The position numbers and the translations under genes are program-made. Shown here one piece after another: positions 11,526 through 32,433 of a DNA stretch of 64,000 nt. This DNA is from an uncultured Chlorobiaceae bacterium (GTDB lineage Bacteria > Bacteroidota > Ignavibacteria > UBA10030 > SZUA-254). The notes below the pieces were generated by a model, which had not been told where the DNA came from, ran no database searches, and saw only the letters and a program-made list of their open reading frames with translations. Every line of letters begins with the position of its first letter. Position 1 is the first letter of the stretch. The stretch spans positions 10,481 through 74,480 of the forward strand of contig CAYYIJ010000002.1 in assembly GCA_964471945.1 (NCBI GenBank). Reading direction: 5' to 3'.

Positions 11526-11526
11526 A

Positions 11527-14396: not shown

Positions 14397-14423
14397 TTTG
14401 AATACATTACGTCCTTTGCAACT

Positions 14424-16675: not shown

Positions 16676-16682
16676 GGATGAG

Positions 16683-16726
16683 AATTGGAAAAATTGAAAA
16701 GATTGAAAAGATTGAAATGATTATAA
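16683..16726. repeat. Short tandem repeat, about four copies of a 9-mer (ATTGAAAAG-like), in the moeA-MOSC intergenic region.
   Basis: Direct reading: gaattggaaaaattgaaaagattgaaaagattgaaatgatt. Confidence 0.5.
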
Positions 16727-16748
16727 TCTGGCAAAGAATTAACAACAA

Positions 16749-17234
16749 ATGACCAATGACAAATTACAAGGCAAAGTAGTTGCTCTCAGTATCAGTGAGC
16801 AGGGGGGTGTTCCAAAAACAAATGTTCAATCAGTTAGATTGATTGAGAATTGGGGCATTGAAGGAGATGCTCACGCGGGAAATCAACATAGGCAAATAAG
16901 TTTGCTTGCAATCGAGAGTATCAGGAAAATGCAAGCCAAAGGACTGGGGGTTCGACCAGGCAATTTTGCAGAAAATGTTACAACCGAATTTCTTAATCTT
17001 CTTGAATTCGAAGTTGGAGACCGACTCATCATCGGCGATGCAGAGCTTGAAATAACTCAAATCGGGAAAGAATGCCACAGCCGATGTGCAATTTATTACA
17101 GTGCAGGTGATTGCGTGATGCCTCGTGAAGGAATATTTGCACGAGTGTTAAAGAGTGGCAAAGTTAGGGCGGGTGATTCAATTAAAGTGAAAAATTTTAA
17201 AGCCATTGAATTATTAAAAAAGAAGAGTACTTGA
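16749..17234 (+). CDS. MOSC domain-containing protein (YiiM-like).
   Basis: A 161-aa MOSC beta-barrel fold with conserved Cys (GKECHSRC). Confidence 0.7.
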   Translation: MTNDKLQGKVVALSISEQGGVPKTNVQSVRLIENWGIEGDAHAGNQHRQISLLAIESIRKMQAKGLGVRPGNFAENVTTEFLNLLEFEVGDRLIIGDAELEITQIGKECHSRCAIYYSAGDCVMPREGIFARVLKSGKVRAGDSIKVKNFKAIELLKKKST

Positions 17235-17819
17235 GTGTTGGAATTAAGGGATGATATTATTGCTGGAGGTAAAAGTGAACGGATGGGACGCGGCAAAGCT
17301 CTTCTCGATTATCATGGTAAACCCTTTGTTCAACATATTGCAGAAAAACTACAAGGAGTTTTCAAAAAAGTAATCATCATTTCTGATAAAGGAGAACAAC
17401 ACAAATTTTTACGTTTACCGATCTATGAAGATATTTATAAAGAATGCGGTCCCCTCGGTGGCATTCACTCAGCATTCATTAATACGGATACAAAAAATAT
17501 TTTTGTCACATCGGTTGACTTACCATTAATAGAAACAAACATGATTCAATTTCTTCTTGATCAAATAAGCGATGCCGATGTAATCCTATTCTCGACAGAT
17601 GATCGGGTGCAGCAGTTGTTCGGATTATACGGGCAGACGTGTATGGAAACTCTACCAAACCATATTCAGCGAAATCAATATTGTGTTCGGGGGTTAATTG
17701 AACAGCTTAATTCAAAAATGTTACCAGCAGAAACTTGTTTGGGAATCAATCGGATCAATTCATTGGCCAATATAAATACAACGACCGATTACATTGAGAT
17801 TTACAATCATTTCGCTTAA
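17235..17819 (+). CDS. mobA: Molybdenum cofactor guanylyltransferase MobA.
   Basis: N-terminal nucleotide-binding motif IIAGGKSERMG..K; GTG start overlapping the upstream stop. Confidence 0.8.
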   Translation: MLELRDDIIAGGKSERMGRGKALLDYHGKPFVQHIAEKLQGVFKKVIIISDKGEQHKFLRLPIYEDIYKECGPLGGIHSAFINTDTKNIFVTSVDLPLIETNMIQFLLDQISDADVILFSTDDRVQQLFGLYGQTCMETLPNHIQRNQYCVRGLIEQLNSKMLPAETCLGINRINSLANINTTTDYIEIYNHFA

Positions 17820-19404: not shown

Positions 19405-20778
19405 ATGAGTTGTAAAACGATTCTTATTGTTGATGATGAAAAATTGATTCGTTGGTCCTTGGTTCAGGAGCTTACAAAATTAGGTTTCAAAACAATCGAG
19501 TCGGAATCTCTACGGCATGCCCGATCAATAATTGACAGCGAAGAAGCCGACTTAATTCTTCTCGATCAAATGCTGCCCGATGGAACAGGTATTGATTTAC
19601 TTACTGAGTTAAAAAAAGATGGCATACTTATCCCCGTTATAATGCTCACTGCAGTCGATAAATCAAATACTGCAGTACAGGCAATGAAATTAGGCGCGTT
19701 TGATTACATAACAAAACCAGTGGATTTTGAAATATTAAAAATATTAATTGAGAAAGCATGTGAATCAAGCCGATTAAAGCGACAAGTAGTCCAATTTTTA
19801 AAAGATCAACAAAGTACTTGTGGTTTTTACGGGTTGTTAGGGACATCAGCTCCAATGAAAAATGTTTGCGAACAAATTGCAAAGATCGCATCGAGCAGTA
19901 TTACGACGGTTTTAATAACAGGTGAAAGCGGGACTGGAAAAGAATTAGCGGCTAAAGCTATTCATTTTCTTAGTGAAAGGAAAGATAAACCACTCATCAC
20001 TGTAAACTTCTCGGCTCTCACGGAAACATTGGCTGAAAGCGAACTCTTCGGTCACGAGAAGGGTGCCTTTACTGATGCTCGACAGCAAAAGAAGGGAATG
20101 TTTGAGCTTGCCGACGGTGGAACAATATTTTTAGATGAAATCGGCGACACATCTCCAAAAATACAAGTAAAATTACTTAGAGTTTTAGAACAAAAAACTT
20201 TCCAAAGGGTTGGTGGAACTTCCGATATTACAGTTGACGTGAGAATTATTGCAGCAACAAACCGACATTTGGAAAAGCTAATAAAGGAAGAGAAATTCCG
20301 AGCAGACCTTTTTTATCGGCTCAATGTCGTAAATTTGCATCTACCTCCACTGAGAGAACGAAAAGAGGATATTATTCAATTAGCAGAATACTTTCTGCAT
20401 GAATTTAACAAAACATTTCATAAAAATTTTAAAGGACTTTCCGAGGAAACAAAGAAGTTATTCATACAGCATGGTTGGCCCGGAAATGTTCGCGAGTTGC
20501 GCAATGTAGTTGAGCGTGCTGTTCTTATGGATGAAGGCGATTATATCTTCTCGCATTCTGTCGAGTTGGGACACCTCCATACTTTAGGTCATGAAAGCCA
20601 CCCGGCACCTATTACTCTCGGTCAAGAAGGACAATCGCTTACAGAGATTGAAAAACAAGTCCTCCTTCAGGCATTAGAAAAAACAAATCATAATCAATCG
20701 CAAGCTGCAAAGTTATTGAAGATAAGTCGCGATACACTACGTTATCGCATGAAAAAATATGGGATGTTCGATCGGTGA
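19405..20778 (+). CDS. Sigma-54-dependent response regulator (NtrC family: REC + AAA+ + Fis-type HTH).
   Basis: REC domain Asp pocket, Walker [15 protein letters not shown]-like loop (EKGAFTDA), and a C-terminal HTH. Confidence 0.85.
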   Translation: MSCKTILIVDDEKLIRWSLVQELTKLGFKTIESESLRHARSIIDSEEADLILLDQMLPDGTGIDLLTELKKDGILIPVIMLTAVDKSNTAVQAMKLGAFDYITKPVDFEILKILIEKACESSRLKRQVVQFLKDQQSTCGFYGLLGTSAPMKNVCEQIAKIASSSITTVLITGESGTGKELAAKAIHFLSERKDKPLITVNFSALTETLAESELFGHEKGAFTDARQQKKGMFELADGGTIFLDEIGDTSPKIQVKLLRVLEQKTFQRVGGTSDITVDVRIIAATNRHLEKLIKEEKFRADLFYRLNVVNLHLPPLRERKEDIIQLAEYFLHEFNKTFHKNFKGLSEETKKLFIQHGWPGNVRELRNVVERAVLMDEGDYIFSHSVELGHLHTLGHESHPAPITLGQEGQSLTEIEKQVLLQALEKTNHNQSQAAKLLKISRDTLRYRMKKYGMFDR

Positions 20779-20925: not shown

Positions 20926-21357
20926 ATGCTAAATGTTACTGAATTAGATTATTCGTCAAACGTCACATCGAGCGACTTGTTAACCTCAAACAATCAAAAG
21001 GTCAAACAGATTTTGGTGGTTGATGATGAGCCATTAGTTTGTTGGTCTATAAAAAATTGCCTGTCCAAGGCAGGGTATTCCGTCGTAACTGCGGAATCAG
21101 CTGAAAGGGCAATCGAAAAATTGTATACAACATGCTTTGATCTCATTGTTACGGACATGAAATTACCTCAACATGATGGCTTTGATGTTGCCGAAATGGC
21201 ACATAAGCTATCTCCTAAGACGCCAGTCATCATGATTACAGCTTTTGGAGATAGTGTTTCAAGGGAACGGGCACAAAATACAAACATCAGCCGTTTCATT
21301 GATAAACCATTTAATATGAACGAGTTCACAAAACTTGTTTCGAGCCTTCTACATTAA
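20926..21357 (+). CDS. Stand-alone response-regulator receiver (CheY-like) protein.
   Basis: REC domain only (VVDDEP...TDMKLP). Confidence 0.75.
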   Translation: MLNVTELDYSSNVTSSDLLTSNNQKVKQILVVDDEPLVCWSIKNCLSKAGYSVVTAESAERAIEKLYTTCFDLIVTDMKLPQHDGFDVAEMAHKLSPKTPVIMITAFGDSVSRERAQNTNISRFIDKPFNMNEFTKLVSSLLH

Positions 21358-21530
21358 GATTTTATCAAGTACAATCTTTACTTAGTTTCCTCGTTCTAAA
21401 TCTCACTTTTGCGTATCATTCCCCACCTTGTTGGGTTATTTGACCCAAGTCTTAATACCGATGCCGCCTCGTCAAATTTGAATTAACCTAATTTCAGACA
21501 TTTTTAACCACTTTTCAACCTTTTGTTTCT

Positions 21531-21546
21531 TGGCATTAGAAGTGCA
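21531..21546 (+). promoter_or_regulatory. Candidate sigma-54 (-24/-12) promoter TGGCAT-N5-GTGCA upstream of the octaheme cytochrome gene.
   Basis: GG and GC elements spaced exactly 10 nt apart (TTGGCATTAGAAGTGCA); an NtrC-type activator is encoded 1 kb upstream. Confidence 0.4.
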
Positions 21547-21564
21547 TTAATATTATACGATATA

Positions 21565-22800
21565 ATGTTCTCTTTTAAAATGATAAAATCCGCTTTAAAA
21601 ATTTTTATTTTCTGCAGTATCTGTTTAACTGTCTTTCTTGGGCTCGGATCTTCAGACCAGATTACGGTATTGGTTCCGAATTCAACGGATTCACTTGCCT
21701 ATGAAAATAATTCTCTTTTTATCATTTCGGTCGATAAAGAATTTTCCAAAGAATTATTAGTATCAACTCAATGGGAGTCTGAAAGAGTTATCAGCATCAA
21801 CACAAAAGAAACAAAGGAAAATTTTCCGAAAGAATTTTATAAAATATTCCCGCCTCAATCCTCAATACAAACATTAGCTTACTCCTTTGTTTTAAGTTCT
21901 GGTTATACTAAACCCGAAACCCTTTCGTATAAATACTCAGACACTATGACGATTCGAAAGTTCTGGCAATCGACATCGTTTGCAAATTTTATCAAGAGAG
22001 TTACTGAGTTTAACGCACCATCAATTTTGCTAAATATTAAGGGATGGAAAGATTCACTATACACTACAGAGTTTGATGATCCTGGTGATGATTCGCGAAA
22101 GCTATTTAAAATAAACATACCATTAATTTCGGGAAATAATACTATTTATTTTTCTGTAACTGGACATACGGAAAGCAGGGTGGAGTATTTTGTAAACCAT
22201 GTTCGTGAATCATCGTCAACCGAGTCGCGCGATAAACGTTTTCATAATTCTGAACTCGAGCAAACCTGCTCACCGTGCCATGAAGGACTACCAAGTTCGG
22301 CAAGCGGAGACAATATGACAGCTGATTGTTTGTCTTGTCATAAAACCATTTCACATGGAGAAAAAGTCCACGGTCCAGTCGATATGAAAGAATGTTCAAG
22401 TTGTCATTCTTGGTCTAAAGATAAAAATTCCGTTGTTGTTGAAAAAGGCGTACCAGAGGTTTGCTACGACTGTCATACAGAAACAAAATCCGTTGTTGAA
22501 AATTCCGCATTTCCACACGCCGTTGGCAGTGAATGCGTTTCTTGTCATTCTCCTCATAGCTCAAGAGGTTCTAAATTGTTAAAACAAGATGTATTCCGAA
22601 TATGCTCGTCTTGTCATGAAGATTACGTCGTAAATCATCCTGTTGAAAGACACCCTCTTCGATTTACTAAGATTAGTAATAATAAAAATGAAGAAATTTC
22701 CTGTGTTAGTTGTCATAATCCTCACGGTTCAAACAATAAAGCAATGTTGAAAGCTGCCGGCGGGAAAATGGCAATCTGTCTTAATTGCCATAATAAATAA
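21565..22800 (+). CDS. Multiheme c-type cytochrome (about 8 CxxCH motifs) with an N-terminal signal/anchor.
   Basis: Eight CxxCH motifs in the C-terminal half. The ORF starts at 21523, but the sigma-54 promoter candidate lies inside that extension, so an internal Met (21565 or 21580) is more likely. Confidence 0.8.
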   Translation: MFSFKMIKSALKIFIFCSICLTVFLGLGSSDQITVLVPNSTDSLAYENNSLFIISVDKEFSKELLVSTQWESERVISINTKETKENFPKEFYKIFPPQSSIQTLAYSFVLSSGYTKPETLSYKYSDTMTIRKFWQSTSFANFIKRVTEFNAPSILLNIKGWKDSLYTTEFDDPGDDSRKLFKINIPLISGNNTIYFSVTGHTESRVEYFVNHVRESSSTESRDKRFHNSELEQTCSPCHEGLPSSASGDNMTADCLSCHKTISHGEKVHGPVDMKECSSCHSWSKDKNSVVVEKGVPEVCYDCHTETKSVVENSAFPHAVGSECVSCHSPHSSRGSKLLKQDVFRICSSCHEDYVVNHPVERHPLRFTKISNNKNEEISCVSCHNPHGSNNKAMLKAAGGKMAICLNCHNK

Positions 22801-22801
22801 G

Positions 22802-23659
22802 ATGATGCCAAAACTAAAAATATTGATAATGTTTTTGATTCTCCTCAATACAGACCTAAAATCTCAAGATGTGAGCGACATCGGTATCGGTGGCGGCAAT
22901 GGAATAGTGTTAATTCCGGCGTTAACTACTACCCCGCTATCTGAATTTCGTTTTCAGACAAACCACGAATTTTTCACTCATAAAAAACTAAACAGCGTAA
23001 CATCATTAAACCTCACCGCTGGTTTTTCTACCCATCTGGAACTATTTCTTAAAGCGTCCACCGAAGATTGGGCGAACTCAACACCTTTGAGGCGAATAGG
23101 ATATGGCGCCAAGTTTATACTGCCAATAAGCGTTAATATAATTAATCAGCCCGCGATCTGGTTCGAGAGTATTAACGGAGTTAATGACCTTGACAACTCT
23201 CTTTTAAAAAGCAAACTAATTCATACCGCCGCAGTTATCAACCCGGCTATTTTAAATTTCACGCCAACAATCCTGGTAGGAATTACAGCTGCAAATTCAT
23301 CTAATCGATTATTTGTTGGGGCTGGAACTTCGCAAACAATAAGCGAGGAAATTAGGTTGGGCTCTGAGATTTCTTACAACTACTACGGTTCAGGCGATGT
23401 GCGTGGATCTGTCTTAATAAATAAACGTATATTTTCAAATGTAGGGATACAATTTGTGTCAACTTATCTCGCATCATCATCATTGCACACCTGGTCGTTT
23501 TCTCTTGGCTTAGTTCTGTCCACTTCTCAAATAAATTTTAGCCCGCAAGCATTAGAACAGAGTGATAAAAAATTAATACCCGATATTGATGATTTGATTA
23601 AGAGCCTTGAAGATGAAGGCAAAAAAGATGAAACGGAAGAAAATAAAAATGATAAATAA
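22802..23659 (+). CDS. Hypothetical exported protein (signal peptide; possible outer-membrane beta-barrel).
   Basis: Signal peptide, beta-rich composition with alternating hydrophobic residues, and an acidic/Lys-rich tail. Confidence 0.4.
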   Translation: MMPKLKILIMFLILLNTDLKSQDVSDIGIGGGNGIVLIPALTTTPLSEFRFQTNHEFFTHKKLNSVTSLNLTAGFSTHLELFLKASTEDWANSTPLRRIGYGAKFILPISVNIINQPAIWFESINGVNDLDNSLLKSKLIHTAAVINPAILNFTPTILVGITAANSSNRLFVGAGTSQTISEEIRLGSEISYNYYGSGDVRGSVLINKRIFSNVGIQFVSTYLASSSLHTWSFSLGLVLSTSQINFSPQALEQSDKKLIPDIDDLIKSLEDEGKKDETEENKNDK

Positions 23660-24662
23660 ATATATAATAATTACGCTGCAAGTTTTAATTGCTTTTTTGT
23701 TGATGAGCTGCGGCGCATCAAAGGATGCTCAAAAAGTTGAGCTCGTTTGGCCCTTGCCTCCGGATGAGCCTCGTGTAAAATATATTAAAACTTATCAGAG
23801 CGAGGATGAATTCCTCTCTGGATTTGGTAAAGCCGTTCAGATCATAGCTGGCGACAAATCTACTATAGGCTTATCACGACCTTTTGACGTTACAACCGAT
23901 GGAAAAGGTAAAATATTTGTCTCGGATATGGAACAGGGGTTAGTGATGTTCGATGAAGTAGAAAAAAAGGTTATTCCCTTAGGACAAAAAAGTATATATC
24001 CGCTTGGCAGAGTAATTGGAATAGCGTACGGTAATAACAAACTCTTTGTCGGCTCAGTGGAAATCAAGGGAATCGTCGCGCTAACACTCGATGGAGAAGT
24101 AATCCAAACTATCGGAGCTTTAGGACAGTTTCAAAATCCGGTTGATGTAGCTTATGACAAATATTTAAACCGTGTAATCGTTGTAGATAATAAAATACAT
24201 CAAGTGGTTGTATTTTCTGAGCTTGGTGATTCGTTGTTTACTATTGGACAAAGAGGCGAAGGCGATGGTGAATTTAATTTTCCGCAAAGCGCCGCTATTG
24301 ACAAACAAAGTAATATTTATGTTGTGGATGCTTTCAATTATAGAGTCCAAGTTTTTGATAAAGATGGAAAGTTTATTCGCAAGTATGGTCAGCAGGGCGA
24401 TGTTTATGGATTGTTTAGCCGTCCTAAGGGTATTGCTTTAGACAACTATAATAATATCTATGTTGTAGATGCTATACACAACAACTTCCAGATTTTTAAT
24501 AACGACTTCGAACTGCTTATGTTCGTCGGTAGATATGCAGTAGATGATAATAAAGGTTTTATGAATCCTGTTGGTATCGACATAGATGAATCAAACAGGA
24601 TATACGTAGCAGATCAGTTGAATTCGCGCGTACAAGTATTTCAACTGTTAAAAGGTGATTAA
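23649..24662 (+). CDS. NHL-repeat (six-bladed beta-propeller) lipoprotein.
   Basis: Lipobox LLMSC. Six NHL-like repeats (FxxPxGVAxDxxGNIYVVDxxNxRVQVF pattern). I trimmed to the Met that gives a proper signal peptide. Confidence 0.75.
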   Translation: MINKYIIITLQVLIAFLLMSCGASKDAQKVELVWPLPPDEPRVKYIKTYQSEDEFLSGFGKAVQIIAGDKSTIGLSRPFDVTTDGKGKIFVSDMEQGLVMFDEVEKKVIPLGQKSIYPLGRVIGIAYGNNKLFVGSVEIKGIVALTLDGEVIQTIGALGQFQNPVDVAYDKYLNRVIVVDNKIHQVVVFSELGDSLFTIGQRGEGDGEFNFPQSAAIDKQSNIYVVDAFNYRVQVFDKDGKFIRKYGQQGDVYGLFSRPKGIALDNYNNIYVVDAIHNNFQIFNNDFELLMFVGRYAVDDNKGFMNPVGIDIDESNRIYVADQLNSRVQVFQLLKGD

Positions 24663-24743
24663 ATTATTTTCTCATACGCCTCGTGAGAGATTAATTACAA
24701 TTAACGATGAGGCAAATAAGATAACAAATTAAGGAGTAATTTC

Positions 24744-25493
24744 ATGAAAAAAATCCTTTTCTTAACCACACTGATACTTATTGTGTCAACATGGGTTATG
24801 GCACAAACGCAAGGAACTGCGTTTATGGCAGGTGCAAAGCACGATCTAAGAGTAAACTCCGGAAAAGCATCGCAAGATTCGATTGCCGGCGCATCCGATA
24901 GGTTATGCTCATATTGCCATTCACCACACATTCCTGCAGCCGGAATCAAAGACCCACTTTGGGCACGCGCTGCAAAAGGTACGAACAATTGGGGTAAATA
25001 TTCTGGTCAACAATTAGATGCAACGGTTGTTGATCCGTCCGACCCAACCGGTGACCAACATAAGAATGAATCAAATATGTGTATAAGCTGCCACGACGGC
25101 ACTGCTATGTACACATCTGCGTCTTATGTTAAGAGACCACATGTTTCCAGTAACCCAACCTGGACTGGCGGCAGCCCGATTGCTTTCACAGCACGTAAAT
25201 CGAATTATGGAACACGTGGAAGAAATGCAATAGTCGGTGGAACCGATTATGTGGATTTAAGCCACACACATCCTGTTAATTTTGATTATAGTGATGCAGT
25301 AACAGCGGACGGGGGACTTTATGCTTCAGTTAACCCAAAGTATGTTTTCCATGATGGTACACAAAAAATTGGACGTTTGTTTAATGACAAGGTTCAATGT
25401 TCATCCTGTCATAATCCACACAAGAAGGACACAAAAATGCTTCAAGGAGATACCGCTGATGGGAAGCTTTGTGTTGCATGTCATGCAAAGTAA
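24744..25493 (+). CDS. Tetraheme c-type cytochrome, secreted.
   Basis: Signal peptide plus four CxxCH motifs (CSYCH, CISCH, CSSCH, CVACH); SD sequence AAGGAG upstream. Confidence 0.8.
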   Translation: MKKILFLTTLILIVSTWVMAQTQGTAFMAGAKHDLRVNSGKASQDSIAGASDRLCSYCHSPHIPAAGIKDPLWARAAKGTNNWGKYSGQQLDATVVDPSDPTGDQHKNESNMCISCHDGTAMYTSASYVKRPHVSSNPTWTGGSPIAFTARKSNYGTRGRNAIVGGTDYVDLSHTHPVNFDYSDAVTADGGLYASVNPKYVFHDGTQKIGRLFNDKVQCSSCHNPHKKDTKMLQGDTADGKLCVACHAK

Positions 25494-25507
25494 TCTCGGT
25501 TAGTTGT

Positions 25508-25545
25508 GTATAAAATTCTGGGGCTTTTTTAATGCCCCAGAATAT
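25508..25545 (+). terminator. Rho-independent terminator.
   Basis: TTCTGGGGC-ttttttaat-GCCCCAGAA hairpin followed by a T-rich tract. Confidence 0.6.
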
Positions 25546-25577
25546 TTTTACTATTTAATATTATTGGCAAGGGAATT

Positions 25578-27251
25578 TTGTTGAGAGTTAGTATTAAGAT
25601 ATTAATCTTATGGCTGGCATTTGATTTTATATCATTTAGCCAAATTAGCTATTGGGGTGGTGATGTACGGTACCAATTCCAATATCATGATGTTTCTACA
25701 TCAGATATTATATCAAAATTTTATCGGCATAGTCCCAGAATATCGCTTAAGACTTCAGGATATATTTTATCCCCCTCTATAGCTTCGATAAATCTTAGCT
25801 CATCCCTATTTACAAATTTCAATCAATCACATTCTAAGAATTTTTATTTTTCTTCCAAACAAATCTCTTGCAATTATTACAATTTAAATGCTACAATTCT
25901 TCCCGAATTTTTAATAAGATTTAATATAACTGCATCTGAAAACGAAATTGAATCGAAATCCGAAACCGCGAGTTATTCTGAATATCCGTCTGATTTCAGG
26001 AACAGCCAGCAAAGAATAAACTTAAGTTCAGATAAAATTGAATTTTTACCTAACATCAGTTTATCCGTTGGCAGAAGCAGAAATTGGTCTGTCTCATCTT
26101 ATTCAAAAACTGATCAAACTCAACACGACTATTCAATATCATTATCAAGAGGAACAGGTAATTCAAACATTTCACTTTCAGGATATATGATTGAAAATTT
26201 CGAAAAATCAAGAGAATATTATAATCGTTATTACCGTATCCAGTTAAATGGCATGAAAGAAATCTCGAAAACGGGTAAGCTCAATTTTAATTCTGAACAT
26301 TATCGACACAGTTCATTTACTTTCACAAATCTTAATACAAATTACAACGACAAAGCAAGCGAACAATTGAGATATCAAACATTAATTTCAGGAAGGATTT
26401 CTGAAACCGAGGTTACTTCAAACGTTAGCTACGGACTTTCACAGTCCGTTAATTATTCATTTGAAAAACATTATCATTTGGGTTATAGTATTAACGGCGG
26501 GGGTGCAAGTGATTATTTTATTATCGATAAACCGAGTGGAGTGTTCCGAAAAATTAATACATTCGGATTAGGGAATGGGGCTACCTTTCAACACAATAGA
26601 CAGATAGGTAATTTGGGATTTGGGAACGGATTAACAATCGGTTACAGCAGACAGTTTAATCCTGACAAACAATATTCTATAAATTACGGTCTGAGCAGCT
26701 CAATTACCACCGATATCAACGGTATTGGTGTTAATGGAAACTTTGATATCGGAGGGAGCCGAACATATTTATTCTTAGAACGAGCCGAGTTTTCAAAGAA
26801 CGCAACCTTATCGCTTTCAACAAGATTGTTTGACGTAGTTTCGTCTGAAACAGTAATAGATTATCGCGACGAAAAAATAACAGAATCTGAATCATTTGAA
26901 CGCACCTTTCGGCAAATACGTATGAACCAACGGCTTCACGGTTCTGCTTATTATTACATTCCGATGAATTTAAGTTTCAGCGGCAGTGTTTTCTTGAACA
27001 TGTTTCCGAAATTAACTAAACACTATAACGCCAATTTTTCTTTCAGCAGCCCCTATTTTTTCGTCGCAAATCTATCGTTTGCATATTCAATTTCTTTTTC
27101 TTACGAACCTTTTTATCGCCGTACAATAATAGACCACACTGCTGAATTTAGATATTCGTTGAGAGCGTTGCAGTTTCATCTTAAATTGAGAGAACATAAA
27201 TACATCAACAATCGGCGGGATGTACTATTTACAATTATCCGTCCGTTTTAA
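25578..27251 (+). CDS. Hypothetical outer-membrane beta-barrel protein (porin-like).
   Basis: Signal peptide, high N/S/Y/G/T content with amphipathic beta-strand periodicity, and a C-terminal aromatic residue (…IRPF). Confidence 0.45.
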   Translation: MLRVSIKILILWLAFDFISFSQISYWGGDVRYQFQYHDVSTSDIISKFYRHSPRISLKTSGYILSPSIASINLSSSLFTNFNQSHSKNFYFSSKQISCNYYNLNATILPEFLIRFNITASENEIESKSETASYSEYPSDFRNSQQRINLSSDKIEFLPNISLSVGRSRNWSVSSYSKTDQTQHDYSISLSRGTGNSNISLSGYMIENFEKSREYYNRYYRIQLNGMKEISKTGKLNFNSEHYRHSSFTFTNLNTNYNDKASEQLRYQTLISGRISETEVTSNVSYGLSQSVNYSFEKHYHLGYSINGGGASDYFIIDKPSGVFRKINTFGLGNGATFQHNRQIGNLGFGNGLTIGYSRQFNPDKQYSINYGLSSSITTDINGIGVNGNFDIGGSRTYLFLERAEFSKNATLSLSTRLFDVVSSETVIDYRDEKITESESFERTFRQIRMNQRLHGSAYYYIPMNLSFSGSVFLNMFPKLTKHYNANFSFSSPYFFVANLSFAYSISFSYEPFYRRTIIDHTAEFRYSLRALQFHLKLREHKYINNRRDVLFTIIRPF

Positions 27252-27265
27252 TTCTTTAATAAATT

Positions 27266-29428
27266 ATGAATAAATATATAAAACCTGCAATAATTACGAT
27301 AATCGGAGTTGTATTATCAGTCTCAGCATTTATGCCTGCAGTTGATGCTCCATTTTTTAATGATGACAACGTTTACATCATAGGCAACAAAAACTTCGAC
27401 TCACCTATAAATGAAGTATGGAAATTCTTTTTTAAGCGAACAAACAATTACGAGTATTTGCCAATCCGAGATATCGTGTATCGTGTCGAGTATGAAATGT
27501 TTGGCGAGAATCCATTAGGTTATCGCATAGTTAATTATTTGTTATATATTCTTTGCTGTCATCTGGTTTACCGTGCATCCAAATTAATTGTGCAATTATT
27601 CAAACAAAAGAACTTAATCTCAGGCGAAACACTAGTTGGATGGATGCCAGCTATAATTACAATTATGTTTGCAGCGCATCCTGCACATGTCGAATCGGTG
27701 GTTTGGATTTCGAGTATGAAAGATTTGCTTTCCGGTGTGTTTATGTTTCTTGCATTGTTCTATTTCATAAAAGGTATTATAGGTGAAGCGTTAATAAAAA
27801 AGTATCTTTATTCAAGCTGGGTTTTATTTTTAGCGGCTTTGCTATCTAAATCTACTGTAATACCTCTCGTATTTATGATTTTTGTTATTGCGTCTGTCCG
27901 CTTTGGAATCAGCAGACAAAATTTTAAACAAGTATTCAAAACAACACAGCCATTTTTGATAATAGGAGTTGTGTTCCTTTTTGTTTACATGCATTTCGGT
28001 TCCGACTCGAAGATTCTTGCTGCGCCGTTTTTGTTTGGAACGCTTGAATCAGTAGTCAACAATTTTCATATTCCGATACTCATACTCGGATATCTTGTTC
28101 GTATTGCACTTATACCGATTAATTTACGGTTGATTTATGATGTAATAGATTTTGGAGCACCCTTTATTATTGCCATTGTATTCGGAGCAGTTTGCATAAT
28201 TGTCAGCATATTTGCTTTACGTTATCTCAACAGACGGCTTACACTTATAGCTTTTGGAATAATTTGGTTTACCGTTTTTACTTTGCCATACCTTCAAATT
28301 ATTCCATTCAATTCGTGGTCATTTGCAAGCGAACGGTATCTGTTCCTTTCAATCTATGGATTAGTACTCATGATTGCAGCGGTGATTATATCATTGAATA
28401 AAAAAACAGGTATGATTATTACCATCAGCATTGTTATTTTTTATCTTTCGAGTACATTTAGTTACAGTTCTATCTGGAAAACTCAGGATACACTGGTCGA
28501 AAATAATGCACGTTACAATCCCAATAATACTTCCTCACAAATGATGTATGTTGAATTAGTACTCATACCACAGAAACGGTATGGCGAAGCATTAGAAATT
28601 GCTGCCAAATCAGGGAAAACTGAAATAGATAAAGAACGCTTTGTTCGTTACATCAAAGTTTTTCAAGCTTACGATTATGAACAGTGGGATGAAATCGAAA
28701 AGCATTGCGAGTGGTTAGAAGGAATGACGGGTATGAATAGCTCGAACGGATTTTTGAACATCCTTGCTACACATTATGAGAATAAAAAAGATTTTCTAAA
28801 AGCTATTGAATATTATTACTATGCAATGGAAGGAACTTACACAAATGAAGATCGAAATGTGTACGCTCAAGTAATCGAGAGGTTGCGTCATTCATACACA
28901 CATAAGATAGACGAATTGGAATCGTTGATAAAAAAATCACCAAATCATGTAAATATGATCGGGGCTTTAGCAAATCAACAGATGCAAATATTTATGTTAG
29001 ATGAAGCCCAGACAAATTACGCTAAGGTGCTGCGGCTTGATCCGGAAAACAAAATAGCACATTATAATCTTGGCTTGCTGTTACGTAAAAAGGGTGAGCA
29101 GCAATTGTCGGTTGAATATTTACAGCGTGCAATCGATTTAGGATTTACAAATGCGATGGTGTTTAACAACTTGGCAATCGGTTACAAAAATATTGATGAA
29201 GCGGTAAAAGCGGAAGAAATATTTTTAAAAGCCATCGAGGTTGACGAAAATTACTGGTATGCTTTATTTAATTTAGCCAAGTTGTATGCTGTACGCGAGA
29301 AAAATGACAAAGCTGTCGAGTATTTTCTAAAAGCTCGAAGGATAGTAATCGAACAAGGTTTATCGCCTGATAATATTGATACATATTTATCGGTTATAAA
29401 CAAATCTCAAAGACCGGAAAAAGAATGA
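27266..29428 (+). CDS. Polytopic membrane protein with PMT/ArnT-like glycosyltransferase-fold N-terminus and C-terminal TPR repeats.
   Basis: About 11 TM helices in the first 400 aa and TPR-like repeats in the last 250 aa; architecture typical of DUF2723/PMT_2-TPR proteins. Confidence 0.5.
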   Translation: MNKYIKPAIITIIGVVLSVSAFMPAVDAPFFNDDNVYIIGNKNFDSPINEVWKFFFKRTNNYEYLPIRDIVYRVEYEMFGENPLGYRIVNYLLYILCCHLVYRASKLIVQLFKQKNLISGETLVGWMPAIITIMFAAHPAHVESVVWISSMKDLLSGVFMFLALFYFIKGIIGEALIKKYLYSSWVLFLAALLSKSTVIPLVFMIFVIASVRFGISRQNFKQVFKTTQPFLIIGVVFLFVYMHFGSDSKILAAPFLFGTLESVVNNFHIPILILGYLVRIALIPINLRLIYDVIDFGAPFIIAIVFGAVCIIVSIFALRYLNRRLTLIAFGIIWFTVFTLPYLQIIPFNSWSFASERYLFLSIYGLVLMIAAVIISLNKKTGMIITISIVIFYLSSTFSYSSIWKTQDTLVENNARYNPNNTSSQMMYVELVLIPQKRYGEALEIAAKSGKTEIDKERFVRYIKVFQAYDYEQWDEIEKHCEWLEGMTGMNSSNGFLNILATHYENKKDFLKAIEYYYYAMEGTYTNEDRNVYAQVIERLRHSYTHKIDELESLIKKSPNHVNMIGALANQQMQIFMLDEAQTNYAKVLRLDPENKIAHYNLGLLLRKKGEQQLSVEYLQRAIDLGFTNAMVFNNLAIGYKNIDEAVKAEEIFLKAIEVDENYWYALFNLAKLYAVREKNDKAVEYFLKARRIVIEQGLSPDNIDTYLSVINKSQRPEKE

Positions 29429-29470
29429 TTGATTTCCTCTCTGCAAAATCCCTTGCCAGAGAGACGAGGG

Positions 29471-29487
29471 TTGGAACTGCTGCTGCA
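29471..29487 (+). promoter_or_regulatory. Candidate sigma-54 promoter TGGAAC-N5-CTGCA upstream of the second NHL gene, preceded by a strong inverted repeat at 29437..29462.
   Basis: GG-N10-GC spacing is correct; this is a weaker match than the one at 21531. Confidence 0.3.
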
Positions 29488-29545
29488 AAGTGGCATTCCA
29501 ATCCTCACTGTATTATATTAATATAGCAACAAAGAAACCGATTGT

Positions 29546-30553
29546 ATGCAATGGTTTAAGAATACATATTATTTAATCTTCATCCTTCTTATTCTCATAA
29601 GAATAGAATTCGCTTTTGCCCAGAGTGAGGGTAAAAAATTGGTTTGGCCCCCCCAACCTCAGAAGGCACGCATACAACATCTTCAGACGATCAGCTCGTT
29701 GAAAGATATAGAGAAAGAACCTTCCTTTTTTGCCAAGTTATTAAAATGGGCTTTCGGTGGCGCTACAACGTCAAAATGGTTAGTCCAACCTGTGGGTATT
29801 GCCGTTTCAGAGAATGGAAAAATTTTTGTAGCCGACCCAGGTTCAAAAGCAGTACACGTTATAGATTTGGAAGAGAGTACACACGGATATTTACTCGAAT
29901 ACGAAAACGATAAATTAATTTCACCCGTCGGTTTAGCAATGTCCGAAGGCGGGTTATTATACGTATCCGATTCAGAGAAAGGCGAGATTTTTGTAGTGGA
30001 TGCAAAATTAAAACTGAAATTTCGGATTAAAGAAAAACTTATCCGACCTACTGGTATGGTCATAATAAACAACAAATTGTATGTCGTCGACACAGGGCAG
30101 CACAAAATAGTTGTTTTTAATTTGAAAGGTGAGTATTTGAGCGAATTTGGTTCACGGGGGGCGGGTGAATGTGAGTTTAATTTTCCTATAACTATAACCG
30201 CGAAAAACAACTATCTGTATGTAGTTGACGCGTTAAACTATCGAATACAAATATTTGACCTCGAAGGTAAATACATTTCCTCGTTCGGCGAGCTTGGGAA
30301 TGCGGCGGGCTTTTTTTCAAGCCCCAAAGCTATCGCTATCGATTCAGACTCAAATATTTATGTTACAGACGCAATGTTTGATAACTTCCAGATATTTAAT
30401 CAGAAAGGTGAACTGCTGTTATTGATTGGGAAATCCGGAGCTGTCGCCGGATTGTTCAGCAGTCCTAACGGAATTTTTATAGATAAATCAGATAAAATTT
30501 ACGTTGTTGATACGTTCAATAAAAGAGTACAAATTTTTAAATACATAAAATGA
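29546..30553 (+). CDS. NHL-repeat beta-propeller protein (paralog of 23649..24662).
   Basis: Signal peptide plus six NHL repeats. Shares blocks with the first NHL protein (YRIQIFDLEGKYI, NFQIFN). Confidence 0.75.
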   Translation: MQWFKNTYYLIFILLILIRIEFAFAQSEGKKLVWPPQPQKARIQHLQTISSLKDIEKEPSFFAKLLKWAFGGATTSKWLVQPVGIAVSENGKIFVADPGSKAVHVIDLEESTHGYLLEYENDKLISPVGLAMSEGGLLYVSDSEKGEIFVVDAKLKLKFRIKEKLIRPTGMVIINNKLYVVDTGQHKIVVFNLKGEYLSEFGSRGAGECEFNFPITITAKNNYLYVVDALNYRIQIFDLEGKYISSFGELGNAAGFFSSPKAIAIDSDSNIYVTDAMFDNFQIFNQKGELLLLIGKSGAVAGLFSSPNGIFIDKSDKIYVVDTFNKRVQIFKYIK

Positions 30554-32433
30554 TACCACGACTGTATATATTCATAACCATTGCGTTAACTGTTAGTTTT
30601 GCAACAACAGCATTTGCACAAACGAGAATTATTGATACAAAACATAATTTAAGCGTCAGCGGCACAGGCACAGTAAAAGCATTGACCGAAAGACAAACCT
30701 GTGTGTTCTGTCACACACCTCACAGCCCAAAACCAAACTCTCAGTTGTGGAATCGGCAGGATCCTGTTGGCGACTATGTTTTATATTCGAGTGAATATTT
30801 GACGAATAAAAATTATCCAAGTCCAAGCCAGCCGAATGCAGTTTCAAAACGCTGTCTTTCCTGCCACGACGGCACGATAGCGCTTGGCGCAGTTTATAAT
30901 GTTTCTCCCAGTTCAATCACGATGTCGGGTGGAATAACTACAATGCCCGAAGCATCAATTGGATACATAGGAACTTCACTCGCCGACGATCACCCTGTGG
31001 GTTATAATTATGACCCGATAGCGGATCCTGAACTCGTCGCACGTTCATTTCCATGGAATACGAGAGTAAAATTGGATCCAGATGCATCGAATGGTACTGT
31101 TGAATGCCACACCTGTCATGATGCACACGATAACCAACACGGGAATTTTTTAAGAATGTCTAATAACAATGCAGAACTGTGCAACTTTTGTCATAACAAA
31201 ACAAACTGGAATTCGTCAGCACATCGGATATCTAATCAAGCCCTTACTCCTCCGGGTTCAAGCGCTACAACAGTTGGAGAGTGGGGATGTCGTAATTGTC
31301 ATAAATCGCACAGCGGCGCTGGAAAGCCCTATCTTCGACCCCTAGTTGAAGAAAATAATTGCTTTACACCGGGTTGCCACGGCAGTTTCTTAAAAGGTAA
31401 CAACACAAAAGACATCCAAACTACTTACTCGAAAATTTTTACCCACCCAACTATAACAGTTAGCGGTAAACATCTCAATCCCGATAACGCTGGAAGTCTT
31501 AACATTCCAAACCGACACGCTGAGTGCGAAGATTGCCACAATTCACATCAAGCAAAGAAAGGACTTCATACTAAGAGGACCAATCAAGTATCGAATGTTT
31601 TGATCGGAGTAAGAGGTGTTACGCCGCCCAACGCCGATATATGGACGCAACCCAATCAGTCAAATTATACAATTGAATATCCATCTATGCAGGAAAACCA
31701 GATTTGTTTTAAATGCCATTCGTCGTATGCTTTTGGAATTGTTCCCAATGGCGTAACGACTATTATTGGTCCTTCGGGTACAAACTTAACGGACCAAGCA
31801 ATGGAATTTAATCCAGCAAACAAATCGGCACATCCGGTACGAGTAACTTCCGATAATTTCTTCGGCTCATCATATCCAAGAGCATTAACAACTTATCAGA
31901 TGCATGATGATTGGAATCAAGTTGGCAATCAATCGATGTATTGTTCGGATTGTCATGGAAATAACCAACAGACATCTGATATGATTCCACAAGGTCCGCA
32001 TGGCTCGGACCGAAAATTTATGCTCACAGGGAAAGCTGGTTATTGGCCCACAAACGCTTTTAATATTTTATGGTCGCTTGACGATATTAAAAACAATAAA
32101 AATAACTGGCAGAATGATCTTTTCTGTACAAATTGCCATCCTGTTTTCAGTGAAGGAAATTTTAAAAATAAAGTACACGCCACTAATGTTCACCAGAGCA
32201 GTGAAGTAAAATGTATAACCTGTCATGTTGTAGTGCCTCATGGGTCAAAGCATTCAAGATTGATCGGATATGAAACTGATGTTATACCATACAATTATAT
32301 GGGCAGCGGAATATTTGATAAACTGGTAATTACTAATTTTCAGAAATCATCGGGTCCTGTTGCTTATGAAAAAAATAACTGTTCTATGAATGGAATTTGT
32401 CATGATTCTCCAGAAGGTTTTTATCGAAAATAA
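30550..32433 (+). CDS. Large multiheme c-type cytochrome (about 10-11 heme sites).
   Basis: Signal peptide plus ten or more CxxCH motifs and one CxxxxCH-like site; 4-nt overlap with the upstream NHL gene. Confidence 0.8.
   Translation: MIPRLYIFITIALTVSFATTAFAQTRIIDTKHNLSVSGTGTVKALTERQTCVFCHTPHSPKPNSQLWNRQDPVGDYVLYSSEYLTNKNYPSPSQPNAVSKRCLSCHDGTIALGAVYNVSPSSITMSGGITTMPEASIGYIGTSLADDHPVGYNYDPIADPELVARSFPWNTRVKLDPDASNGTVECHTCHDAHDNQHGNFLRMSNNNAELCNFCHNKTNWNSSAHRISNQALTPPGSSATTVGEWGCRNCHKSHSGAGKPYLRPLVEENNCFTPGCHGSFLKGNNTKDIQTTYSKIFTHPTITVSGKHLNPDNAGSLNIPNRHAECEDCHNSHQAKKGLHTKRTNQVSNVLIGVRGVTPPNADIWTQPNQSNYTIEYPSMQENQICFKCHSSYAFGIVPNGVTTIIGPSGTNLTDQAMEFNPANKSAHPVRVTSDNFFGSSYPRALTTYQMHDDWNQVGNQSMYCSDCHGNNQQTSDMIPQGPHGSDRKFMLTGKAGYWPTNAFNILWSLDDIKNNKNNWQNDLFCTNCHPVFSEGNFKNKVHATNVHQSSEVKCITCHVVVPHGSKHSRLIGYETDVIPYNYMGSGIFDKLVITNFQKSSGPVAYEKNNCSMNGICHDSPEGFYRK

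What the first reader, a model, noticed from the sequence alone, without database searches (positions are those of the whole stretch)
21523..32433. Porin-cytochrome-like gene cluster: three multiheme cytochromes (8, 4 and about 10 hemes) interleaved with outer-membrane barrel candidates and a PMT-like membrane protein
Within 11 kb on one strand there are an octaheme cytochrome, an exported beta-rich protein and an NHL propeller lipoprotein. They are followed by a tetraheme cytochrome with its own terminator, a 557-aa beta-barrel-like outer-membrane protein ending in an aromatic residue, and a polytopic PMT/ArnT-fold protein with TPR repeats. A second NHL protein and a 627-aa cytochrome with ten or more hemes complete the run. 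Cytochromes next to dedicated outer-membrane barrels suggest trans-outer-membrane electron conduits (the Mtr/Pcc type). The composition here, with NHL propellers and a glycosyltransferase-fold protein, differs from described Mtr or Pcc clusters. It may represent an undescribed extracellular electron-transfer or mineral/sulfur respiration module under the control of the upstream heme-sensing two-component system.
Basis: partly seen in the sequence, partly recalled or inferred. Interest (0 to 1): 0.6.

Follow-up and report, generated by a model that had tools for sequence, protein, structure and literature searches.

The report
OmcE-type cytochrome nanowire gene cluster
This 11-kb operon in an Ignavibacteria-like (Bacteroidota) genome most likely builds and anchors an OmcE-type extracellular cytochrome filament ("nanowire") for moving electrons outside the cell; the system is already described in Geobacter relatives, but this is a differently composed version.

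Summary
All eight genes are real. The haem counts are 8, 4 and 10 CxxCH plus two conserved variant motifs. The 249-aa tetrahaem protein is a full-length homologue of OmcE, the subunit of solved nanowire filaments (PDB 7tfs, 9yuq). It keeps all eight haem-ligand histidines. Residues 1-217 of the 627-aa cytochrome form a second OmcE module.

The gene set matches the published minimal omcE cluster: OmcE, two beta-propellers, a large beta-barrel and two multihaem cytochromes. AlphaFold2 models the 557-aa protein as a plug-less barrel of about 28 strands (pLDDT 90.5).

The membrane/TPR protein looks TMTC-like and is accessory, since syntenic relatives lack it. A conserved sigma-54 promoter and a kinase with a periplasmic CxxCH motif lie upstream. 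A strong hairpin follows the subunit gene.

This version differs from the Desulfuromonadia clusters. Its barrel belongs to another family, it has an extra 285-aa protein of untested fold, and it carries the OmcE-fusion cytochrome, which those clusters lack. That fusion, preceded by an NHL gene, recurs in most of the 80 surveyed loci from many phyla.

Verdict: a new variant of a known kind. The extracellular electron transfer reading holds. The "undescribed Mtr/Pcc-like" label does not.

The parts
17902..19401 (+). Sensor histidine kinase with one CxxCH (CYDCH, residue 151) in its periplasmic domain, between two hydrophobic segments (7-25 and 183-201)
   Evidence: Pfam HAMP/HisKA/HATPase_c. The motif is conserved in the syntenic kinases of L002 and L004.
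19405..20778 (+). NtrC-type sigma-54-dependent response regulator (receiver, AAA+ Sigma54_activat, HTH_8)
   Evidence: Pfam Sigma54_activat 1.9e-68. It holds the same position in L002 and L004.
20926..21357 (+). Single-domain response regulator (receiver only)
   Evidence: Pfam Response_reg 1.8e-26. Conserved in synteny.
21531..21546 (+). Sigma-54 type -24/-12 promoter element TGGCAT-N6-TGCA, about 35 nt upstream of the ATG at 21580
   Evidence: It is the only + strand match in the window. The same element, TGGCATTAAACATGCA, lies about 48 nt upstream of the orthologous first gene in L002 and L066.
21580..22800 (+). Octahaem cytochrome (406 aa from the corrected start). It has an N-terminal non-haem domain of about 210 aa with no family match, and a C-terminal MtrA/DmsE-like 8-haem domain.
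   Evidence: 8 CxxCH. Paired_CXXCH_1 4e-29. MtrA chain 6r2q_A 2.6e-13. The haem domain aligns end to end with the 8-haem 330-aa cytochrome of Desulfuromonadia omcE clusters, E about 1e-25.
22802..23659 (+). Exported 285-aa protein of unknown fold. It has a signal peptide, a beta-pattern-rich body of about 215 aa, and a charged C-terminal tail with a conserved IP(S/D)(F/I)(D/E)(D/E)(L/M)(E/I)K motif.
   Evidence: No Pfam, NCBIfam or PDB hit. Homologues occur only in the window-type loci L001-L004 and L066. No similarity to the barrel families by hhalign.
23607..24662 (+). NHL six-bladed beta-propeller, probable lipoprotein (LLMSC lipobox). The real start is probably an internal ATG near 23649.
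   Evidence: Pfam NHL 6.3e-21 and DUF5128 2.6e-13. N-terminal sequence. 51-61% identical in syntenic loci.
24744..25493 (+). OmcE-like tetrahaem cytochrome, the candidate filament (nanowire) subunit
   Evidence: Full-length phmmer hits to filament structures 9yuq_N (8.5e-17) and 7tfs_A (1.5e-15). The 4 CxxCH and the 4 distal His are invariant in alignment A2.
25515..25549 (+). Intrinsic-terminator-like hairpin (10-bp stem, 9-nt loop) plus U-tract, directly after the subunit gene
   Evidence: dG -21.4 kcal/mol, z-score -5.47, 0 of 200 shuffles as stable. Sequence read.
25578..27251 (+). Large outer-membrane beta-barrel (557 aa, about 28 strands, no plug domain, C-terminal F)
   Evidence: AF2 pLDDT 90.5, 29 strand elements. 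Foldseek matches only large OM barrels, including MtrB, FimD usher and LptD. hhalign gives 98.2% probability against the 650-700-aa barrels of other OmcE loci. The family is narrow: 38 representatives among 1.84 billion.
27266..29428 (+). Polytopic membrane protein (at least 9 hydrophobic segments) with C-terminal TPR repeats. It is TMTC-like, a putative periplasm-facing GT-C glycosyltransferase, and an accessory gene.
   Evidence: TPR families. Hydrophobic segments. The TM domain hits TM/TPR proteins beside a Desulfuromonadales omcE cluster at 2e-12 to 2e-14. Two of 4 homologues hit PF08409 TMTC_DUF1736 at 3.9e-4, but the window copy does not. Absent from L002, L004 and L066.
29546..30553 (+). 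Second NHL beta-propeller (ordinary signal peptide). Its stop overlaps the next gene's start by 4 nt.
   Evidence: Pfam NHL 1.3e-28. The 4-nt overlap is conserved in L002 and L004. An NHL gene lies directly upstream of the fusion cytochrome in 48 of 80 loci.
30550..32433 (+). 627-aa cytochrome with 12 haem motifs. An N-terminal OmcE module (residues 1-217) is fused to a C-terminal multihaem extension of about 400 aa with no solved relative.
   Evidence: 7tfs_A 1.6e-29 on residues 8-217. The AF2 model matches 7tfs with TM 0.70 over 205 columns, and nothing else in the PDB matches. 26 (near-)invariant His. At least 4575 homologues. It is the most conserved protein of the cluster, at 56-62% identity.

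Best explanation
The operon encodes an OmcE-type extracellular cytochrome filament and the envelope machinery that exports, anchors and feeds it. Homology, fold and synteny are shown. Every functional step below is inferred.

1. A sensor kinase with a periplasmic CxxCH motif, likely a c-type haem redox or ligand sensor, activates the NtrC-type regulator. The regulator fires the sigma-54 promoter at 21531-21546.
2. The 249-aa tetrahaem OmcE homologue is the polymerising subunit. As in OmcE, one haem per subunit would be completed by a histidine from the neighbouring subunit. This would give a continuous insulated haem chain outside the cell.
3. The hairpin after this gene lets it be made in excess over the downstream assembly genes.
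4. The plug-less barrel of about 28 strands is the outer-membrane port. It serves as the secretion channel, the anchor for the filament, or both.
5. The MtrA-like octahaem cytochrome and the 12-haem-motif cytochrome carry electrons from the periplasm to the filament.
6. The 12-haem-motif protein has its own OmcE module. It probably docks on one filament end through the normal subunit interface, acting as a base adaptor or a cap.
7. The two NHL propellers are chaperone or scaffold partners. The second is translationally coupled to the 12-haem-motif cytochrome.
8. The TMTC-like/TPR protein is an optional modifier, probably a glycosylating enzyme.

The direction of electron flow and the natural acceptor (Fe(III), humics, a partner cell or other) cannot be read from the sequence.
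For: Subunit identity:
- The tetrahaem protein matches the two solved OmcE filaments over its full length.
- All 8 haem-ligand His are invariant.
- OmcE wires have an interfacial haem ligated by His from two subunits (PMC12954529).

Cluster composition:
- The published minimal omcE cluster holds two multihaem cytochromes, two beta-propeller lipoproteins, OmcE and a large beta-barrel. It is often followed by glycosyltransferase and TPR genes (preprint).
- The window has exactly this set.
- The 8-haem cytochrome is homologous to the Desulfuromonadia cluster's 8-haem cytochrome.
- The TM/TPR protein is homologous to proteins next to a Desulfuromonadales omcE cluster.

Barrel: confident AF2 model, homologous to the barrels of 38 other OmcE loci.

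Fusion cytochrome: OmcE module shown by sequence and by model.

Synteny: the order, including the regulators, is conserved in L002, L004 and L066.

Regulation and stoichiometry: sigma-54 element conserved; hairpin.

Conservation gradient: the subunit, barrel and 285-aa protein evolve fastest, while the fusion cytochrome and NHL proteins evolve slowest. This fits the report that surface-exposed cytochromes evolve faster than conduit-embedded ones (PMC12977616).
Against: - No filament has been seen in any Ignavibacteria or Bacteroidota. Homology to OmcE does not prove polymerisation, and most OmcS paralogues are not known to form wires.
- The window's free-standing subunit belongs to a divergent subclade, 33% identical to Geobacter OmcE. 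That is less than the fusion's N-terminal module at 38%.
- The barrel shows no detectable similarity to the Desulfuromonadia omcE-cluster barrel (hhalign 0.6%).
- Deleting related cytochrome/NHL clusters in D. ferrophilus gave no Fe(III) oxide phenotype (PMC9769857).
- The physiological importance of OmcE and OmcS wires is disputed even in Geobacter.
- The roles assigned to the NHL proteins, the 285-aa protein and the fusion cytochrome are inference only.
Confidence: 0.7

Rival explanations
1. It is a porin-cytochrome conduit of the Mtr/Pcc type without any filament. The MtrA-like octahaem (or the 12-haem-motif) cytochrome sits inside the barrel. The OmcE-like proteins act as monomeric surface reductases. 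This is essentially the first reader's reading.
For: - The 8-haem domain resembles MtrA and DmsE (6r2q_A 2.6e-13; TIGR03508 1.2e-19).
- The barrel has about 28 strands with no plug, and MtrB is among its structural matches.
- Related clusters were interpreted as outer-membrane cytochrome complexes or Mtr-like conduits (PMC5815863; peat preprint).
Against: - All Mtr/Pcc family models score below their cut-offs: TIGR03508 70.8 against 192.2 bits, and MtrC domain 22-26 against 30 bits. There is no MtrB/PioB model hit.
- The tetrahaem protein keeps every residue that defines the filament subunit. It is followed by a stoichiometry-setting hairpin typical of a major structural subunit.
- The two readings are not exclusive. 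A conduit at the base of a filament is part of the best explanation.
Confidence: 0.2
2. It is a periplasmic respiratory or detoxifying multihaem enzyme system, for example nitrite, sulfur or polysulfide reduction, and the barrel is a substrate porin.
For: - There are weak sub-threshold hits to NrfB, NrfH and octahaem nitrite reductase.
- In L004 an NrfA-like gene and a CcmF gene lie just upstream of the regulators.
- SQR-like and DsrE genes lie about 10 kb upstream in the window.
Against: - No CxxCK catalytic haem motif occurs in any of the three cytochromes.
- No catalytic family reaches its cut-off.
- The NrfA-like neighbour is not conserved in the window or in L002.
- The closest solved relatives are nanowire subunits.
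Confidence: 0.05
3. The filament or conduit works in electron uptake (oxidation of Fe(II), Fe(0), minerals or a partner cell) rather than in reduction of an external acceptor.
For: Related NHL/cytochrome clusters in D. ferrophilus were induced under electron-donor starvation and linked to electron uptake from electrodes (PMC5815863). Haem chains are reversible (established knowledge).
Against: Nothing in the window fixes the direction. No inner-membrane partner is encoded nearby. This rivals only the direction of flow, not the identity of the machine.
Confidence: 0.25

Closest known systems
omcE nanowire gene cluster of Desulfuromonadia (Geobacter sulfurreducens OmcE, PDB 7tfs; Desulfuromonas soudanensis OmcE, PDB 9yuq; bioRxiv 10.1101/2025.10.22.684050)
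   Same: - A tetrahaem OmcE homologue with all haem ligands.
- An adjacent large beta-barrel.
- Two beta-propeller proteins.
- An orthologous 8-haem cytochrome with an N-terminal non-haem domain.
- A homologous TM/TPR (glycosylation-type) protein nearby.
   Different: - The barrel is 557 aa rather than 740-750 aa and shows no detectable similarity to theirs.
- The second cytochrome is a 12-haem-motif OmcE fusion instead of a 9-10-haem, 340-370-aa protein.
- There is an extra 285-aa exported protein.
- The cluster is flanked by a haem-kinase/sigma-54 system instead of resB-ccsB.
- The phylum (Bacteroidota/Ignavibacteria) is not among the five listed in that preprint.
Widespread 'OmcE - NHL - 5-haem - barrel - NHL - 11-haem fusion' module. 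It appears in 34 of the 80 surveyed loci and is probably what the literature calls the D. ferrophilus DFE_0448-0451/0461-0465 clusters and the peat 'porin-scaffold-cytochrome' EET1. The link to the D. ferrophilus and peat clusters was not tested by sequence.
   Same: - OmcE-like subunit.
- Homologous barrel (hhalign 98.2%).
- Two NHL proteins.
- The same NHL-plus-fusion-cytochrome pair at the 3' end.
   Different: - The window type replaces the small 5-haem cytochrome with an 8-haem cytochrome carrying a 210-aa N-terminal domain, and adds the 285-aa protein.
- It has a shorter barrel.
- Its gene order differs, with the cytochrome first and the subunit fourth.
osc (OmcS-companion) cluster of G. 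sulfurreducens (Shen et al. 2025, as summarised in PMC13194489)
   Same: The logic is the same: a nanowire subunit gene is clustered with a beta-propeller-like protein (OscD) and channel-like outer-membrane proteins (OscEFG) proposed to fold, secrete and shape the wire.
   Different: - There is no OmcS-type hexahaem subunit.
- There is no prolyl-isomerase chaperone (OscH equivalent) in the window.
MtrCAB / Pcc porin-cytochrome conduits
   Same: A large plug-less outer-membrane barrel sits next to a periplasmic MtrA-like multihaem cytochrome.
   Different: - No MtrB/PioB, DmsE/MtrA or MtrC family model reaches its cut-off.
- The cluster has NHL propellers.
- It has OmcE modules, which Mtr and Pcc systems lack.

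Membership tests
omcE-type cytochrome nanowire cluster | Tetrahaem OmcE homologue with four CxxCH motifs and the four additional conserved haem-ligand histidines | tested here: met
   phmmer 1.5e-15 to 7tfs_A and 8.5e-17 to 9yuq_N over the full length. All 8 His are invariant in A2.
omcE-type cytochrome nanowire cluster | Large outer-membrane beta-barrel gene next to the subunit gene | tested here: met
   AF2 pLDDT 90.5, about 28 strands. Foldseek matches OM barrels only. The gene lies 85 nt downstream of the subunit gene.
omcE-type cytochrome nanowire cluster | Beta-propeller (lipo)proteins in the cluster | tested here: met
   Two NHL propellers above the Pfam cut-off. The first has a lipobox-like LLMSC and the second has no Cys in its signal peptide.
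omcE-type cytochrome nanowire cluster | Two further multihaem cytochromes homologous to those of the Desulfuromonadia cluster | tested here: inconclusive
   The 8-haem protein is homologous end to end, E about 1e-25. The second cytochrome is a different protein, a 12-haem-motif OmcE fusion, which is absent from L005, L006, L011 and L013.
omcE-type cytochrome nanowire cluster | Barrel homologous to the Desulfuromonadia omcE-cluster barrel | tested here: not met
   hhalign probability 0.6%. The barrel is instead homologous (98.2%) to the barrel family of 38 non-Desulfuromonadia OmcE loci.
omcE-type cytochrome nanowire cluster | Subunit polymerises into an extracellular filament with inter-subunit His-haem ligation | not testable with these tools
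   This needs haem-aware multimer modelling or cryo-EM. Only monomer AF2 without haems was available.
MtrCAB / Pcc porin-cytochrome conduit | MtrB/PioB-family barrel, DmsE/MtrA-family decahaem cytochrome and MtrC/OmcA-type outer cytochrome | tested here: not met
   No barrel family hit. TIGR03508 scores 70.8 bits against a cut-off of 192.2. The MtrC II-IV domain scores 22-26 bits against a cut-off of 30.
osc (OmcS-companion) cluster | OmcS-like hexahaem subunit and PPIase chaperone OscH | tested here: not met
   There is no 6-haem protein and no OmcS structure among the PDB hits. No PPIase domain was found in any Pfam scan of the cluster or its flanks.
   The window TM domain has no Pfam, NCBIfam or PDB hit. 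Two of its 4 aligned homologues hit PF08409 TMTC_DUF1736, best E 3.9e-4. An acidic DD motif after TM1 is invariant.

The most novel reading that the evidence does not exclude
The 627-aa cytochrome with 12 haem motifs may be the dedicated terminal subunit of the filament. Its first 217 residues are a complete OmcE module. It is always partnered with, and translationally coupled to, an NHL propeller.

In this reading it docks through the normal OmcE interface. Its extension of about 8 haems then wires the filament into or through the barrel as a base or anchor, or caps it as a tip or stopper.

The D. soudanensis study looked for such a component and reported it missing from Desulfuromonadia omcE operons.

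Supporting counts:
- 26 (near-)invariant histidines, where 12 bis-His haems would need 24.
- The highest sequence conservation in the cluster.
- Presence in 66 of the 80 surveyed loci.
Probability: 0.3. Interest if true: 0.75.

Novelty: new variant of a known kind. Interest (0 to 1): 0.5.

Why it matters
Cytochrome nanowires have been solved only from Geobacter relatives and two archaea. How they are started, anchored, fed with electrons and terminated remains open.

This locus places an omcE-type system in Ignavibacteria-like Bacteroidota, a group common in anoxic sediments, aquifers and bioelectrochemical reactors. The survey built around it shows that most non-Geobacter versions share a conserved NHL plus OmcE-fusion cytochrome pair, which the model organisms lack.

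That pair is a concrete, testable candidate for the missing base or cap of the wire. It could also serve as a sturdier genomic marker than the fast-evolving subunit.

The haem-motif kinase, sigma-54 regulator and conserved promoter offer a handle on what signal switches nanowire production on.

Tried and rejected
- **Second OmcE-like module in the C-terminal 400 residues of the 627-aa protein.** hhalign gave 79-92% probability. Unrelated multihaem families gave 92-98% against the same profile, so the signal comes from the CxxCH motifs. Rejected.
- **The 285-aa protein or the N-terminal domain of the octahaem protein as a split-off piece of the longer barrels in other lineages.** hhalign probabilities were at most 0.7%. 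Rejected.
- **Fold of the 285-aa protein.** No Pfam, NCBIfam or PDB-profile hit. A home-made amphipathic-strand scan was too crude to count strands.
- **PMT/ArnT fold of the 720-aa protein.** There is no direct hit, only transitive weak TMTC_DUF1736 hits.
- **Terminator scan.** The simple scan missed the hairpin because of its 9-nt loop. RNA folding recovered it.
- **G. sulfurreducens locus.** Geobacter argillaceus (L006) and three Desulfuromonadales/Geobacteraceae MAG loci served as the reference clusters instead.
- **Papers not held in the library.** Wang et al. 2022 could not be opened and no copy of Shen et al. 2025 turned up in searches. Their content is cited only through papers that summarise them.

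Full report
**Observation**

The eight + strand ORFs exist as described. Motif counting gives 8, 4 and 10 CxxCH in the 425-, 249- and 627-aa proteins. The 627-aa protein also has a CFTPGCH motif. Its C611...C617-H618 motif is invariant or nearly so in 50 homologues, which makes 12 haem motifs.

- Pfam confirms both NHL propellers and the C-terminal TPRs of the 720-aa protein.
- The 285-aa and 557-aa proteins and the membrane domain of the 720-aa protein match no Pfam or NCBIfam family.
- The terminator after the tetrahaem gene is real. A 10-bp stem at 25515-25543 followed by ATTTTT folds at -21.4 kcal/mol, z = -5.5. The consensus scan missed it only because its loop is 9 nt.
- One correction: a sigma-54 -24/-12 element (TGGCATTAGAAGTGCA, 21531-21546) lies inside the TTG-started ORF. 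The first gene therefore most likely begins at ATG 21580, giving 406 aa, as in an independent gene call.

**What the cytochromes are**

Searching solved structures gave the key result.

- The 249-aa tetrahaem protein matches two proteins over its full length. One is OmcE of Geobacter sulfurreducens (7tfs, 1.5e-15). The other is a 218-aa 'putative multihaem cytochrome' deposited as 16 chains (9yuq, 8.5e-17). Its aligned sequence is 43% identical to G. sulfurreducens OmcE, close to the 41% the preprint reports for D. soudanensis OmcE. It is most probably that bundled filament (bioRxiv 10.1101/2025.10.22.684050).
- Residues 8-217 of the 627-aa protein match OmcE even better (1.6e-29).
- In an alignment with both solved subunits, the four CxxCH motifs and four further histidines are invariant. 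This holds in both window proteins. These are the residues the preprint names as conserved haem ligands.
- OmcE wires have an interfacial haem ligated by histidines from two adjacent subunits (PMC12954529).
- An AF2 model of the 627-aa protein (pLDDT 70, pTM 0.69) matches 7tfs on its N-terminal domain (TM 0.70, 205 columns). Nothing else in the PDB matches it.
- The C-terminal half of the 425-aa protein resembles MtrA (6r2q chain A, 2.6e-13) and the DmsE family, but scores far below the family cut-offs.

**Fit to the published cluster**

[quoted passage not shown] These are often followed by glycosyltransferase (families 2, 4, 39) and TPR genes. The window has exactly that inventory.

I tested homology component by component against Desulfuromonadia loci fetched (L005, L006 Geobacter argillaceus, L011, L013).

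- The 8-haem domain aligns end to end with their 330-aa 8-haem cytochrome, E about 1e-25.
- The NHL proteins match at 1e-39 to 1e-60.
- The membrane domain of the 720-aa protein matches two TM/TPR proteins beside the L005 cluster, at 2e-12 and 2e-14.
- Two components do not correspond. Their 740-750-aa barrel is not detectably related to the window's (hhalign 0.6%). Their second cytochrome has 9-10 haems in 340-370 aa and is not the OmcE fusion.

**The barrel**

The word-index search found three relatives. A full HMMER scan of 1.84 billion representatives found only 38, nearly all full length.

With 30 of these as alignment, AF2 gives a confident all-beta model (pLDDT 90.5). It has 29 strand elements and no plug or periplasmic domain, which I read as about 28 strands. 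Foldseek retrieves only large outer-membrane barrels at low TM-score (0.25-0.40). These include TonB-dependent receptors, MtrB, the FimD usher and LptD. The model is therefore a large generic barrel, not a member of a solved family.

Profile-profile comparison shows homology (98.2%, E 3.5e-14 over 347 columns) to the 650-700-aa barrels next to OmcE relatives in 38 other loci.

It has a signal peptide, beta-type sequence patterns and a conserved charged tail. It has no detectable relatives outside the window-type loci. Its barrel status is open.

**Distribution and the recurrent module**

The genome scan found at least 557 GTDB species with OmcE relatives. ORF-calling and classifying the best 80 loci gave these counts:

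| Feature | Loci (of 80) |
|---|---|
| NHL gene | 76 |
| OmcE-fusion cytochrome (at least 9 haems, at least 450 aa) | 66 |
| NHL gene directly upstream of the fusion | 48 |
| Complete module | 34 |

The complete module is OmcE (about 210 aa), NHL, a small 5-haem cytochrome, a barrel, NHL, and an 11-haem fusion. Carriers are labelled Planctomycetota, Bacteroidota, Gammaproteobacteria, Acidobacteriota, Calditrichota, Desulfobulbaceae, Nitrospiraceae, Verrucomicrobiota and others. That is far more than the five phyla named in the preprint.

The window-type variant has the 8-haem cytochrome with its N-terminal domain, the 285-aa protein and the 557-aa barrel. It occurs only in L001-L004 and L066. 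Gene order is conserved there, including the kinase, the sigma-54 regulator and the single receiver. The 720-aa gene is absent from those loci. L002 and L066 carry a third NHL gene and a second OmcE paralogue in that slot, so the gene is accessory.

Names attached to homologues place the window in Bacteroidota/Ignavibacteria (Ignavibacteriales, Ignavibacteria, Bacteroidota MAGs). A T9SS sorting domain elsewhere in the window agrees.

Related clusters are already in the literature. They include D. ferrophilus DFE_0448-0451/0461-0465, which hold cytochromes plus NHL propellers (PMC5815863), and a 'porin-scaffold-cytochrome' system with OmcE-like cytochromes in peat Acidobacteriota. I did not compare those sequences directly.

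**Regulation**

- The kinase has one CxxCH at residue 151, between its two hydrophobic segments. The motif is conserved in L002 and L004.
- The adjacent regulator is NtrC-type (Sigma54_activat 1.9e-68).
- The -24/-12 element upstream of the first gene is conserved in L002 and L066 at the same distance from the start codon.

This control is inferred from position and conservation.

**Mechanism (inferred)**

The free-standing OmcE homologue is the polymerising subunit. It is over-produced relative to downstream genes because of the hairpin. The barrel exports the filament, anchors it, or both, as proposed for OmcE and OmcS barrels. The octahaem and 12-haem-motif cytochromes connect the periplasm to the filament. 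The NHL proteins act as scaffolds or chaperones.

Identities to the three syntenic loci form a gradient:

| Protein | Identity (%) |
|---|---|
| Fusion cytochrome | 56-62 |
| NHL1 | 51-61 |
| NHL2 | 48-52 |
| Octahaem cytochrome | 44-45 |
| OmcE-like subunit | 36-43 |
| Barrel | 26-32 |
| 285-aa protein | 27-32 |

Exposed cytochromes are reported to evolve fastest, and conduit-embedded ones more slowly (PMC12977616). The gradient therefore suggests that the fusion cytochrome is buried in a complex rather than exposed. I favour a base-adaptor role over a tip role, at low confidence.

The fusion has a complete OmcE module, a conserved 4-nt overlap with NHL2, and 26 conserved histidines for 12 haems. 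The preprint notes that no tip or stopper candidate is encoded in Desulfuromonadia omcE operons. This protein is such a candidate in most other lineages.

**Rivals**

- A pure Mtr/Pcc-type conduit is not excluded. However, every family-membership test failed, and a conduit at the filament base is compatible with the best explanation.
- A nitrite or sulfur enzyme system is unlikely. There is no CxxCK motif and no catalytic family above its cut-off.
- The direction of electron flow is undetermined.

**Caveats**

- No filament is known from this phylum.
- D. ferrophilus deletions of related clusters had no Fe(III) oxide phenotype.
- The physiological role of OmcE and OmcS wires is disputed.

**Verdict**

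The locus is a new variant of a known kind, the omcE-type cytochrome nanowire cluster. Its most interesting element is the conserved NHL plus OmcE-fusion cytochrome pair.

Noticed in passing
window 21531-21546 (and L002 6681-6696, L066 2932-2947): A conserved sigma-54 -24/-12 element lies upstream of the first cytochrome gene. It falls inside the TTG-started ORF, so the gene start should move to ATG 21580.
   Followed up: yes
window 17902-19401: The sensor kinase carries a single CxxCH in its predicted periplasmic domain, conserved in two syntenic relatives. It may be a c-type haem redox sensor controlling production of the cluster.
   Followed up: partly
window 30550-30553; L002 15466-15469; L004 13727-13730: The stop of NHL2 overlaps the start of the 12-haem-motif cytochrome by 4 nt in all three loci. 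This suggests translational coupling and a fixed-ratio complex.
   Followed up: partly
L002 12661-14415 and L066 (slot between the barrel and NHL2): Where the window has the 720-aa TM/TPR gene, relatives carry a third NHL-like gene plus a second OmcE paralogue (228 aa). L004 has nothing there. This is a variable accessory slot.
   Followed up: partly
L062 (JBHHWA010000004.1, labelled Thermoplasmata archaeon): This contig carries the full bacterial-type module, including an outer-membrane-barrel candidate. It is probably a mis-binned bacterial contig rather than an archaeal system.
   Followed up: no
window 34304-36124 (- strand): A secreted subtilisin-like S8 protease with an I9 propeptide and an FN3 domain lies about 2 kb downstream of the cluster on the opposite strand. 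From memory, OmcZ maturation in Geobacter needs a subtilisin-like protease. This gene is not conserved next to the cluster in L002 or L004, so it is probably unrelated.
   Followed up: partly
window 6218-9578: Three genes sit in a row: an M78 (IrrE-like) peptidase, a TIR-domain protein (403 aa) and an unannotated 511-aa protein. This looks like a small anti-phage defence island.
   Followed up: no
window 13386-17819 and L002 1-2934: Molybdenum-cofactor biosynthesis genes (MoaA, MoaC/MoaB, MoeA, MOSC, MobA-like) lie directly upstream of the regulators in the window. MoaC, MoeA, MOSC and MobA-like genes hold the same position in the Ignavibacteriales MAG. The reason for this conserved linkage is unknown.
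   Followed up: no
window 10296-13050: A pyridine-nucleotide-disulfide oxidoreductase, a DUF1641 protein and a DsrE-family protein suggest sulfide or sulfur handling. They are not part of the cluster.
   Followed up: no
L005-L084: OmcE relatives occur in at least 557 GTDB species. The genome labels span many more phyla than the five listed in the 2025 preprint, including Planctomycetota, Acidobacteriota, Bacteroidota, Calditrichota, Verrucomicrobiota and Zixibacteria.
   Followed up: partly
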